From assembly GCA_951406725.2 (NCBI GenBank), contig OX597823.1:51708001-51772000 (forward strand): DNA of 64,000 bases, written 5' to 3'. Source of the stretch: Octopus vulgaris (taxonomy: Eukaryota). The notes beneath the pieces are model-generated. The model did no database searches. It was not told the origin of the DNA and saw nothing but the letters and a program-made list of their open reading frames with translations. A program made the position numbers and the translations under genes. Positions 2,201 to 22,473 of this stretch are shown here, one piece after another; position 1 is the stretch's first letter; the number at the start of each line of letters is the position of its first letter.

Positions 2201-2233
2201 TCTCTCTTCTCTTTATCATATTAATACAATATA

Positions 2234-2350
2234 ATATGGCCATATAACTTTGAAAGCATCAGTTCTCATCTGATCACTGAAGTTAAGCAACGTCAGTCCA
2301 ATGAGTACTTAGATGGGTGACCGCTTGGAAAACCTAGATGCTGTAAGCAT
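2234..2350 (+). pseudogene. 5S rRNA pseudogene (retroposed copy)
   Basis: Matches the metazoan 5S consensus: GGCCATA..TTGAAAGCATCAGTTCTCATCTGATCACTGAAGTTAAGCAACGTC..AGTACTTAGATGGGTGACCGCTTGGAAAACCTAGATGCTGTAAGC. Many transitions; followed by an A-rich tract instead of an oligo-T terminator. Confidence 0.92.
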
Positions 2351-2375
2351 AAAAAAATAAAAGAGAAAAAAGAAA

Positions 2376-2584
2376 GTGAGCTGGCAGAAATGTTAGCATG
2401 CCAGGCAAAATACTTAGTGGTATTTCATCTGTCTTTACATTCTGAGTTCAAATTCTGCCGAGGTCGACTTTGCCTTTCATCCTTTTGGGGTTGCTAAATT
2501 AAGTACCAGTTGCATACTGGGGTCGATCTAATCGACTGGTCCTCTCCCTAAAAATTTCGGGCCTTGTGCCTTGAGTAGAAAAGG
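2376..2584 (+). mobile_element. SINE family A (tRNA-like head, body GACTTTGCCTTTCATCCTTTCGGGGTCGATAAA..AGTACCAG)
   Basis: A box GAGCTGGCAGAA, B box GAGTTCAAATTC; more than 10 related copies in the window. Confidence 0.85.
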
Positions 2585-4420
2585 ATACAATATATTCATA
2601 TACACACACACAAATGCACACACATATATATGTATACATATGTGTGTATGTTCGTGTATATGCTTTAGTATGATGGTGAAAACTGTATATATTGTTGCAT
2701 CCTTTACTTCAAGTCATACACATAATTATATTTAAAAATAATCCTTTTCTATCAGCCTAACTGGGAGACCAGTCCCTCAGCAGAGCTTATATAGTGCTGA
2801 GCATCACAGGAATCAGTAGTCATCAAATTAGCCACTTAAGGTGATTATGGATCAGAAGAATCGAGCCATGAGTAGGGTAGTGCTATATAGAAACCAATAA
2901 AATAGTGCCAAACTGAAATAAGTATGAAATAGTATGATAAATTAAAAAATTCTTTTTTTAAAATTTGGTGCCCCAATATGGCCATAATCCAATGACTGAA
3001 GTCAGGAAAGCAATAAGAGTATAATGTAGAATTCCAGACCAGATTGAGGCAATTGAAGAAAAGCTTATGCAATAAAGTTGTACAAAATGTGTAAGAGCGT
3101 TGTAAATTGAAAGCTGTTAGTTTGAGAACAAGAACGCAACAAGTTAGCTGTGATATAGTTTTGAAAGAGTTAATGTGATTGGGAAATGCATAAATGTATC
3201 AACCTCCCATTACCATTTCCTTAAGTGGTTAGTTTGGAAAGGAATGGCTTCAGTCAAACTGATTTTTCCCTGGTCAAATGAAGATGAAATTGAATTCTTG
3301 AGAATTCTTCAGAAGTACTTCGATGACCTAATGGATTATGGGATATTATGTAACTAACAAGTGGTACATGAAGCAGAAACCAGAGAAAGGTGATTGCAAT
3401 GGTCCTCTGCTCCTCTCTTGGTAAGGCAATACAAAACACACTGAAATACATGGACAGACTTTGTACAAGCTTACCTAAATAAGAAATCAGATTTGAAACC
3501 AATGATGAAATTTATTTGGAGAAGATTTGTTATTATCAGCTTCATTATTCTATGATTATTTTTGCCAGTGGACTTGTGATATTCTAATTGTTTTAAAACA
3601 CCAACAATGGATAAAGAGGTTACATGGCTGAATAAATGAGTTTTGGACTATGACTTGTAGGTTATGAGATCACATCTATTCCAGTTATTTTGTGGCACTT
3701 CTTAATTCTATGTGTATCAGTTTAGCAAGCCATTGAGAATAAGTACATTGATTTTTCTGAGAAAATTACCAGCAATAGACATCGCATCATATCTATATTA
3801 AGTAGCTGGAAAAGCCTCTATCTCTCTTCTATGCTATGTTCCAGTCATATGAATTAAAATATAGATCCTTATGAGTCCTGAGAGGATTGTTATTTTTTTT
3901 ATTAATAAAATCACTAATTCTGTATGAAATAACTTAATTTTCTAAATCAGTAATTATAGCCAGAATTTGATTTTTTATCTATATATATATATATATATAT
4001 TTGTATTCCTAGATGAACAAACCTGGATATTTATTCTCTGTTTATTTCATCCATATCTATTTTTTCATAGGTCATTTGGATATTAAGTTGCTGCCATTAT
4101 TGTTGTTGTTGTTGATGCTGTTGTTTAATCCATCCGACTCAGTCAAGCAGACATTTGATCAAATAATTTTATCCATAACTATACTACATTTATGTATTCA
4201 GAAATTTTGTATCTAGAACTATTATTCAATACATCCTTTAATAATGCAAGGTGTTATTTGTGTGAGAGTTGGATGCTTATTTCTAGTAAGTGGAGAGAGC
4301 ATTCATTGGCCATTCATTGACTTATTATTAATAGTAGATTATAACCTTCTCATCAAATAAATCTATGACCCAGAGTCATTTCCTAGTTTTATTAATTACT
4401 CTTACATTACTGCTTTCCTG

Positions 4421-20715: not shown

Positions 20716-21659
20716 AGGTGGTGGACTGGCAGAATTGTTACTGTGCCAAGCAAAATGTTTATCGGTATTTCATCTGTCTTTACTTTCTGAGTTCAAATTT
20801 GACTTACATTTTTTAAGGTCAAGTGCTGGGGTTGATATTGACTTATCTCCTACCCCAAAATTGTTGGCTTTGTTCCAAAATTTGAAACCATGATCATTAT
20901 TTTTATTATCATTGTGTAAGGCAGCAAGCTGGCTGAAAATTTAGCACACCGGACGAAATGCTTAGCAGTATTTTGTCTGCCGTTACGTTCTGAGTTCAAA
21001 TTCCGCCGAGGTCGACTTTGCCTTTCATCTTTTCGAGGTCAATTAAATAAGTACCAGTTACGCACTGGGGTCGATGTAATCGACTTAATCCATTTGTCTG
21101 TCCTTGTTAGTCCACTCTATGTTTAGCCCCTTGTGGGTAGTAAAGAAATAGGTATTTCGTCTGCCGCTATGTTCTGAATTCAAATTCCGCCGAGGTCGAC
21201 TTTGCCTTTCATTCTTTCGGGGTCGATAAATTAAGTACCAGTTACACACTGGGATCGATATAATCGACTTAATCTGTTTGTCTGTCTTTGTTTGTCCCCT
21301 CTGTGTGTAGCCCCTAGTGGGCAGTAAAGAAATAGGTATTTCGTCTGCCTCTATGTTCTGATTTCCAATTCCACCGAGGTTGACTTTGCCTTTAATCCCT
21401 CTGGGGTTGATAAATTAAGTACCAGCTGAGTAATGGGTTGATGTAATTGACTTGCCCCTTCCCCAAAATGGCTGCCCTTGTGGCAAAATTTGAAATTGTT
21501 ATGTTCTAATTTCAAATTCTGTCGAGGTCAGCTTTGCCTTTCAACCTTTCAGAGTCAATAAATTAAGTACTAGTGAAACACTGGGGTTGATGTAATCAAC
21601 TAGTCCCTTCTCCAGTATTTCAAACCTAGTGCCTTTAGTAGAAAGGATTATTATTATTA

Positions 21660-21691
<32 letters not shown>

Positions 21692-21747
21692 TTTTATTTT
21701 TATTATTATTATTTTTATTATTATTATTATTTTTATTATTATTAATA

Positions 21748-21796
<49 letters not shown>

Positions 21797-21810
21797 TATT
21801 ATTATTATTA

Positions 21811-21861
<51 letters not shown>

Positions 21862-21870
21862 TTATTATTA

Positions 21871-21921
<51 letters not shown>

Positions 21922-21958
21922 TTATTTTTATTATTATTATTATTTTTATTATTATTAA

Positions 21959-22012
<54 letters not shown>

Positions 22013-22411
22013 TTAGGCACAAGCTGGTTGTATTGTTTGATTCTGAGTTCAAATCTCTACAAGGTTGACTTTGCCTTTTATTCTTTCAGTTTCAATAAAA
22101 TAAGTACCAGCTGAGAGCACTGGGACTGATATAATCAACTCACCCCCCTCCCAAAATTTCAGGCCTTGTACTCATATCAGAAAGGATTATTATGTATAGG
22201 GTGACTTGCTGGCAGAATCATTAGCATGCTGTACAAATCTTGGCTGCATTTCACCTGTCTGTATGTTCTGAGTTCAATTTCTGCCAAGGTTGGCTTTGCC
22301 TTTAGTCTTTTCAGGGTCAATAAAATGTGTACTAGTTCTGCATTGGGAACTGATGTAATGAACTTATCCCCTCCACCAAAAACATTAGGCCTCGTGCCTA
22401 TAGTAGAAAGG

Positions 22412-22412
<1 letters not shown>
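20716..22412 (+). mobile_element. Cluster of same-orientation family A SINEs and repeated 3' modules among (TTA)n tracts
   Basis: Copies start at ~20716, ~20920, ~22012 and ~22200, with body modules repeated at ~21151, ~21334 and ~21500; long (TTA)n at 21648-22010. Confidence 0.85.

Positions 22413-22473
<61 letters not shown>

What the first reader, a model, noticed from the sequence alone, without database searches (positions are those of the whole stretch)
2224..2594. 5S rRNA-SINE chimera enclosed by one 10-bp target-site duplication
Seen: ATACAATATA at 2224-2233 and 2585-2594 brackets a near full-length 5S copy, a ~25-nt A-rich linker and a complete family A SINE in the same orientation. 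Inference: the two Pol III transcripts integrated as one unit. This could be an RT template-switch chimera (like U6-L1) or a dimeric 5S+tRNA SINE with two internal promoters. Established: 5S-derived SINE3 families and 5S/tRNA composites exist in vertebrates. I do not know of one described in cephalopods.
Basis: partly seen in the sequence, partly recalled or inferred. Interest (0 to 1): 0.72.

Follow-up and report, generated by a model that had tools for sequence, protein, structure and literature searches.

The report
Recurrent 5S rRNA capture by SINEs
A decayed copy of 5S ribosomal RNA sits joined in front of a short jumping element (SINE) inside one 10-base duplication; it is one of many separate fusions of this kind in the genome, likely made when the copying enzyme ran off the element's RNA and hopped onto the end of a 5S RNA, and likely not a spreading element of its own.

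Summary
Observation confirmed: one 10-bp duplication encloses a 5S copy, an A-rich linker and a SINE. It is neither unique nor a dimeric SINE family. Of 70 dispersed 5S copies sampled by their 3' end, 59 are fused in sense to a motif-recognised retroelement part (three SINE families, short tails), and others to LINE fragments. No two junctions are identical. Most linkers resemble the 3' trailers of 5S genes, so the captured RNA was likely an unprocessed Pol III transcript. U6 shows the same partners. In 32 5S-SINE A fusions, 17 have a duplication flush with both ends (control 3.5%), and their SINE halves are not one clade (p-AU 0.003). Best reading: independent chimeric retrocopies, likely made by end-to-end template jumping. 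This is the class known for U6 in platypus and anole. I found no cephalopod report in six literature searches. The scan itself noted the same class before at other loci of this genome and in another genome. No empty site was seen; RNA ligation and two-step insertion are not excluded for this locus.

The parts
2224..2233 (+). Left copy of the target-site duplication
   Evidence: Exact 10-mer, only two occurrences on the window's + strand
2235..2350 (+). 5S rRNA retrocopy, positions 4-119 plus one T; 84.5% identical to the genomic 5S gene; one deletion and substitutions around positions 61-73; no upstream AGAATAAA motif of the array genes
   Evidence: Rfam; alignment to array gene; array upstream motif
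2351..2375 (+). A/G-rich linker in place of a 5S gene trailer; no run of four T, so no Pol III stop at the junction; last 6 nt may be an altered SINE start
   Evidence: Sequence; T-run scan
2376..2584 (+). Family A SINE, short-tail (A2) subfamily; A-box-like TGGCAGAAATG 2382-2392 and B-box-like GAGTTCAAATTC 2444-2455 (box consensus recalled); a TTTT at 2483-2486 would stop Pol III before the tail
   Evidence: BLAST in window; subfamily call; tree; 3' ends of other A2 copies; T-run
2585..2594 (+). Right copy of the target-site duplication, flush with the SINE 3' end; no A-rich remnant in between

Best explanation
The locus is a 5S rRNA copy fused in sense to a SINE inside one short duplication, likely a dead chimeric retrocopy made in one insertion and independently of the other such fusions in the genome. 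Steps: (1) a LINE-encoded reverse transcriptase primed at the target on the SINE RNA 3' end (inferred: the SINE end is flush with the right repeat); (2) it copied to the SINE's 5' end (shown: head nearly complete); (3) it jumped end-to-end onto the 3' end of a 5S RNA (inferred; shown: all sampled junctions lie at the 5S 3' end, by selection of the sample); (4) it copied 5S almost to its 5' end and integration closed with an 8-10-bp duplication (structure shown). Most sister fusions keep a gene-type trailer, so their acceptor was likely unprocessed pre-5S. Here the trailer is replaced by an A/G-rich stretch, most likely an oligo(A) tail on trimmed 5S (inferred, weaker).
For: Flush duplication in 17 of 32 5S-SINE A fusions against 3.5% of 256 permuted pairs, a rate like solo SINEs, 12 of 30. 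The identities of the two halves to young references correlate, rho 0.45, p 0.01. 59 of 70 sampled dispersed 5S copies carry a recognised partner: 25 tail T1, 20 SINE B, 6 SINE A, 4 tail T2, 2 SINE C, 2 SINE A tails; no identical 30-nt junctions; 55 of 70 have a gene-type trailer. The ATTCC-type trailers are those of array genes and a gene-like copy on C5 has the TAGCAC trailer. One clade of chimeric SINE halves is rejected, p-AU 0.003. U6 has the same partners, about 79 of the first 100 rows by eye, 13 with SINE A (Rfam confirms 6 of 6 fetched). Serial forms exist: 5S-5S and U6-5S confirmed by Rfam, U6-U6 by eye. Serial end-to-end jumping is shown in vitro for R2 RT (PMC8594491, PMC8857657, passages). 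RtcB ligation is strongly reduced by a 5' triphosphate or a 3' OH (PMC6789731, passages), the ends expected of full-length SINE RNA and pre-5S (recalled).
Against: No empty site or 5S-only ortholog was seen; the read test was swamped by repeats. 15 of 32 fusions show no duplication at the threshold. A generic duplication test on all 70 was weak, 16 of 70 against 9% in controls, many hits in microsatellites. The window's linker is the minority type, 2 of 70, and its origin is unresolved. A solo 5S-A(n) copy with a 12-bp duplication exists (L183), so a two-step substrate is real. The U6/L1 case, long read as template switching, turned out to be RNA ligation (PMC6789731). The mobilising LINE of family A was not identified.
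Confidence: 0.68

Rival explanations
1. RNA ligation first: 5S RNA and SINE RNA were joined by an RNA ligase (RtcB-like or other), and the fusion RNA was then retroposed through the SINE tail.
For: Proven route for human U6/L1 (PMC6789731, passages). It predicts the same one-duplication, sense, 3'-end junction. Tail partners start at one fixed point, the base of a predicted hairpin, which could be a cleavage product. An unreviewed scan note (e1-8799442) argues for ligation of U6 in this genome; not tested here.
Against: RtcB needs a 2',3'-cyclic phosphate and a 5'-OH; full-length SINE heads and trailer-bearing 5S would not normally have them (recalled). Solo tails are cut at the same point without any 5' partner. 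Extra bases between T-run and partner are frequent.
Confidence: 0.13
2. Two steps: an A-tailed 5S retropseudogene inserted first, and the SINE later inserted at the end of its A tail.
For: The linker is A-rich; a solo 5S-A(n) with duplication exists (L183). In long-tail (A1) fusions the linker resembles the SINE's AAAGAAAT end, which gives 7-10-score inner matches in 12 of 32.
Against: No A remnant lies between SINE end and right repeat here, nor in the other 8 A-linker fusions with a duplication (offsets -2 to +3). The inner matches overlap the SINE's own consensus end, and none was found flush with the window's SINE. Solo 5S-A(n) is rare: 1 of 23 rows.
Confidence: 0.1
3. A copy of a composite 5S+tRNA SINE family transcribed from a master gene.
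For: At least 32 5S-SINE A fusions exist. Such composites are described in vertebrates (PMC4824008, PMC4494074, passages). The A-rich linker has no Pol III stop.
Against: Linkers differ; SINE halves come from two subfamilies and are not one clade (p-AU 0.003; A-linker subset p-AU 0.0005, group named after the tree was seen). 0 of the first 100 of 12,440 exact SINE A heads have 5S upstream, by eye. The window copy has an internal TTTT.
Confidence: 0.06
4. Chance neighbours: the 10-mer is a coincidental AT-rich match and the two elements are unrelated insertions.
For: The 10-mer is 90% AT; 4 of 150 random stretches gave an equal score.
Against: Both copies are flush with the element ends; 20 exact junction matches on 15 contigs against 0 in the reversed control.
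Confidence: 0.03

Closest known systems
U6-LINE and U6-SINE chimeric pseudogenes in genomes with stringent LINEs: U6-L2 and U6-Mon-1 in platypus, U6-RTEX, U6-L2 and U6-AnolisSINE2 in anole ('Group IV'; Doucet et al. 2015, PMC4476161, passages read)
   Same: A Pol III RNA fused 5' of a LINE or SINE inside one duplication; nearly all dispersed copies are chimeric because the partner supplies the recognised tail; several partner families.
   Different: Here the RNA is 5S (and U6), mostly near full-length (60 of 70), usually with a gene-type 3' trailer, in an invertebrate, and the count is likely in the hundreds (extrapolated).
Human 5S/L1 chimeras (Law and Burns, bioRxiv 10.1101/2025.02.02.635956, passages read)
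   Same: 5S rRNA co-inserted with a retroelement inside one duplication.
   Different: Those are frequently antisense and truncated at 5S positions 46 or 90. These are sense and joined at the 5S 3' end; my sample was selected for 3' ends, so antisense forms were not looked for.
5S-headed composite SINEs: HaSE3 (PMC3272025, passages); vertebrate 5S + partial tRNA heads (PMC4824008, PMC4494074, passages)
   Same: 5S head on a tRNA-SINE, proposed to have arisen by a template switch from SINE RNA to 5S RNA.
   Different: Those are amplified families from a master. HaSE3 replaced the tRNA head. Here each copy looks independent and keeps the SINE head: the proposed precursor stage, not the family.
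U6/L1 chimeras made by RtcB ligation (Moldovan et al. 2019, PMC6789731, passages)
   Same: Full-length small RNA, T-run, sense partner, one duplication.
   Different: L1 partners are variably 5'-truncated; here SINE partners are usually complete to their first bases and the 5S end is a trailer or A-rich stretch.

Membership tests
Small-RNA/retroelement chimeric retrocopy (Group IV of Doucet 2015) | Cellular small RNA directly 5' of a LINE or SINE part, same orientation | tested here: met
Small-RNA/retroelement chimeric retrocopy (Group IV of Doucet 2015) | One target-site duplication around both parts | tested here: met
   Window 10-mer; 17 of 32 like loci against 3.5% control
Small-RNA/retroelement chimeric retrocopy (Group IV of Doucet 2015) | Both parts absent together at the orthologous empty site | tested here: inconclusive
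   Contigs of four runs laid on 1700-2594; one contig of organism B crosses the left junction without differences; no empty site among the rows shown; repeats swamped the tables
Small-RNA/retroelement chimeric retrocopy (Group IV of Doucet 2015) | Copies arise independently; solo partners far outnumber chimeras | tested here: met
   No identical junctions among 70; monophyly rejected; 12,440 exact SINE A heads, 0 of first 100 with 5S upstream by eye
Small-RNA/retroelement chimeric retrocopy (Group IV of Doucet 2015) | Join made during reverse transcription rather than by RNA ligation | not testable with these tools
   Inferred from complete SINE 5' ends and serial fusions; needs RNA or biochemistry
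SINE3 or dimeric 5S+tRNA SINE family (SINEBase criteria, PMC3531059) | Head at least 60% identical to 5S rRNA over 60 nt, plus body and tail | tested here: met
   84.5% over 116 nt
SINE3 or dimeric 5S+tRNA SINE family (SINEBase criteria, PMC3531059) | Common origin: shared junction and diagnostic changes not in the cellular gene | tested here: not met
SINE3 or dimeric 5S+tRNA SINE family (SINEBase criteria, PMC3531059) | At least 100 copies with the same modules | tested here: inconclusive
   32 with near-full head plus 5 more; searches are lower bounds; no full census possible
SINE3 or dimeric 5S+tRNA SINE family (SINEBase criteria, PMC3531059) | Read-through Pol III transcript of the whole unit | not tested
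   No RNA laid. Sequence only: TTTT at 2483 in this copy; TTTT within 22 nt of the 5S end in 25 of 70
Octopus OR1/OR2 SINEs (for the family A half) | Sequence identity to the published consensus; CORE domain | not testable with these tools
   No repeat library at hand; papers list OR1/OR2 as CORE-SINEs. I do not assign family A to them

The most novel reading that the evidence does not exclude
This genome is a SINE nursery caught in the act: its retrotransposon RTs routinely jump onto nuclear Pol III precursors (pre-5S with gene-specific trailers, U6, intron-bearing pre-tRNA), leaving hundreds of proto-SINE3s and a fossil record of 5S trailers lost from today's main array. Most are sterile because they carry the terminator along; only A-linker fusions like this one are read-through competent, and a few of these may have acted as masters of small 5S+tRNA SINE subfamilies, the first in a cephalopod.
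Probability: 0.15. Interest if true: 0.68.

Novelty: new member of a known kind. Interest (0 to 1): 0.42.

Why it matters
The birth of 5S-headed and composite SINEs by template switching is usually argued from finished families. Here the proposed intermediates are present in numbers, with junctions that record the 3' end of the captured RNA. That makes three things testable in one genome: which RNA ends an RT accepts, whether jump or ligation makes the join, and why so many fusions gave no amplified SINE3 (retained terminator in 25 of 70; loss of the upstream motif of true 5S genes). Practically, most dispersed '5S genes' annotated in this genome are chimeric pseudogenes. The single locus is almost certainly inert.

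Tried and rejected
Empty-site test: contigs of four DNA runs (organisms A-D) laid on 1700-2594 gave no usable joint; SINE-derived contigs saturated the tables and the right flank was not covered. Generic duplication search over all 70 copies was weak because many sit in (TA)n tracts. ARAGORN found no tRNA in the window and called 0 of 3 tRNA-like 5' partners; Rfam confirmed 1 of those 3. Pfam recognised only the endonuclease-like partner of L171; the 429-aa frame behind the 5S-5S pair (L169) and the 149-aa frame of L170 had no Pfam match, and L169 had no PDB match, so 'Penelope-like' and 'RTE-like' rest on recalled motifs. My first guess that family A is OR1/OR2 was dropped. A source gene for the commonest GTCACAC trailer was not found: 22 matches, 21 rows fused to repeats, one gene-like copy of the TAGCAC type; 150 kb of the C4 array held none among 115 copies. 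A default A-rich 5' extension of SINE A was rejected: about 2 of 100 solo heads have an A-run upstream, by eye. Literature searches that found no cephalopod 5S chimera or SINE3; subscription papers, Repbase and Dfam were not searchable and no supplements were read.

Full report
Observation. The 10-mer ATACAATATA lies at 2224-2233 and 2585-2594 and nowhere else on the + strand of the window. Between the copies are one extra A, a 5S copy (Rfam 2232-2349, 75.6 bits; positions 4-119 of the genome's own gene, 84.5%), a 25-nt A/G-rich linker and a family A SINE ending GTAGAAAAGG. Other short-tail copies end the same way, so the right repeat is flush with the SINE end. The left flank scored as well somewhere in 4 of 150 random 640-nt stretches; the flush position makes chance less likely still. 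The window is C10:51,708,001-51,772,000 of a 2.8-Gb genome; that it is an octopus is my inference from genome layout and repeats, and earlier scan notes say the same.

It is not a single event. A junction query returned 41 matches; 20 of the 30 loci fetched, the window's own included, have a 5S 3' end just before a family A head. An exact junction pattern gave 20 matches on 15 contigs, control 0. Pooling these query-biased sets gave 32 fusions with a near-complete head. In 17 a duplication of score 8 or more ends at the 5S start and begins at a SINE end, against 3.5% of 256 permuted pairs. Solo SINEs gave 12 of 30 by the same rule, some in simple repeats. Identities of the two halves to young references correlate (rho 0.45, p 0.01). 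These points support co-insertion.

It is not a family. The 32 SINE halves are 28 long-tail, 3 short-tail and 1 unassigned. On a tree of 62 heads they need 13 label changes; they are clustered more than shuffles but one clade is rejected (p-AU 0.003; 170 columns, most forks weak). The window's half pairs with a solo copy (98/82), which had been picked by similarity to the window query. The 15 A-linker fusions are also rejected as a clade (p-AU 0.0005; group named after the tree was seen). Of 12,440 exact family A heads, none of the first 100 listed has 5S upstream, by eye.

The wider pattern. A pattern for the 5S 3' end alone gave 402 matches (control 1); the 100 listed are 30 array genes on C4 and 70 dispersed copies on C1-C4. 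All 70 were examined. 59 are followed within 32 nt by a recognised retroelement motif: tail T1 25, SINE B 20, SINE A 6, tail T2 4, SINE C 2, SINE A tails 2 (the labels are mine). Of the other 11, six look by eye like diverged or truncated members of these, two are LINE-like coding fragments (one with a Pfam endonuclease match), two are unassigned and one has only (TA)n. No two 30-nt junctions are identical; 60 of 70 5S parts start by position 12. The window's own copy is too diverged to match this pattern, so the counts are lower bounds.

What the linkers are. True 5S genes have a short gene-specific trailer before the T-run terminator and a conserved AGAATAAA motif about 30 nt upstream. 55 of 70 dispersed copies carry a trailer-type linker: 15 of the ATTCC type found in the array and 40 of a TCACAC/TAGCAC type absent from 115 array copies. 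A gene-like copy with the upstream motif and the TAGCAC trailer stands on C5; no source gene was found for GTCACAC. The captured RNA was therefore likely the unprocessed Pol III transcript. U6 behaves alike: 210 matches, about 79 of the first 100 fused to the same partners by eye, 13 to SINE A; Rfam confirms U6 at 6 of 6 fetched loci and a 113-nt tRNA match, long enough to hold an intron, before a T-run and tail T1. 5S-5S and U6-5S tandems show serial joins.

The window's linker is the minority type (2 of 70). Among 23 rows of a 5S-plus-A-run pattern (control 9), 17 had a recognised partner by eye: 10 SINE A, 0 SINE B, against 6 and 20 of 59 in the general sample (p 9e-5 and 0.004). Five unassigned rows and one solo were dropped, and one counted row (L186) had no 5S BLAST hit. 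The solo is 5S-A(n) with a 12-bp duplication (L183), which suggests that A-tailed 5S RNA exists. The linker may be such a tail, a re-copied SINE tail (it resembles AAAGAAAT), or untemplated bases. This is unresolved.

Mechanism. Best reading: target-primed reverse transcription began on SINE RNA, ran to its 5' end and jumped onto a 5S 3' end. R2 RT does this serially in vitro and needs a short non-templated or complementary overhang (PMC8594491, PMC8857657; passages). Ligation is the main rival, since it explains human U6/L1; but replacing the cyclic phosphate by 3'-OH or the 5'-OH by triphosphate strongly reduced it (PMC6789731; passages), and complete SINE heads would carry a triphosphate (recalled). 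Two-step insertion predicts an A remnant after the SINE, absent here and in the eight other A-linker fusions with a duplication. An empty site could not be shown.

Why no SINE3 arose is inference: 25 of 70 junctions keep TTTT within 22 nt, and retrocopies lose the upstream motif; 5S promoters are said to depend on upstream signals (PMC3272025, passage). The window copy has no stop at the junction but has TTTT at 2483, so it is unlikely to be a master now.

Known or new. Doucet et al. describe the same situation for U6 in platypus and anole, SINE partners included (PMC4476161; passages). Human 5S/L1 chimeras are known but often antisense and truncated (10.1101/2025.02.02.635956; passages). A switch from SINE RNA to 5S RNA is the proposed origin of composite heads (PMC4824008, PMC4494074, PMC3272025; passages). 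Kojima 2018, Matetovici 2016, SINEBase and Luchetti 2016 were read as passages. Buzdin 2002/2003, Nishihara 2006 and Ohshima and Okada 1994 were not read, and no supplements were. Six searches showed no cephalopod case. Earlier unreviewed scan notes report the same class at other loci; my reading was fixed before I saw them and they are not independent support.

Verdict: a real, one-step 5S-SINE chimeric retrocopy, one of many independent ones; new member of a known kind; interest 0.42, carried by the trailer evidence and the census rather than by the locus.

Noticed in passing
L169 (G000:C25:5354954-5355202, - strand): Two identical 5S copies in tandem, each with the array trailer TTACCTGTTT, fused to a 429-aa open frame that looks Penelope-like by recalled motifs; no Pfam or PDB match. 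Looks very young.
   Followed up: partly
L166:429-541 (G000:C1:10209785 region): 113-nt tRNA match (Rfam), probably with an intron, then a short trailer and T-run without CCA, fused to tail T1: candidate capture of an unspliced pre-tRNA, or a tail inserted behind a tRNA gene.
   Followed up: partly
L197 (G000:C4:80599046): U6 followed directly by an old 5S copy and a SINE B-like 3' part: possible triple chimera. U6-U6 tandems at C1:187750244 and C2:23366751 (by eye).
   Followed up: partly
genome-wide: 7,330 exact matches to tail T1; a large share of the first 100 are solo copies that begin at one fixed point, the 5' base of a predicted hairpin (fold). Tail T2 partners also begin at a hairpin base.
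   Followed up: partly
L161 (G000:C5:16494001-16504000): Two gene-like 5S copies outside the main array with different trailers; both trailer types recur in dispersed fusions. The commonest trailer type has no source gene found: possibly an extinct 5S array type.
   Followed up: partly
window 20726-22413; loci L005, L006, L014, L026, L028: Long-tail family A SINEs form tandem arrays (period 184 at 20968-21425) and often sit inside other SINE heads at AGAAAC, GGTATTTC or AAGAAG sites that echo their own 3' end.
   Followed up: no
G000:C1:132423348-132529200: Six U6-tail fusions with the same junction about 20 kb apart: probably a tandem segmental duplication, not retroposition.
   Followed up: no
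L170 (G000:C1:46391763) and L171 (G000:C1:217267893): 5S with trailer fused to broken LINE-like coding fragments; L171 matches Pfam PF03372, L170 resembles an RTE RT end by recalled motifs.
   Followed up: partly
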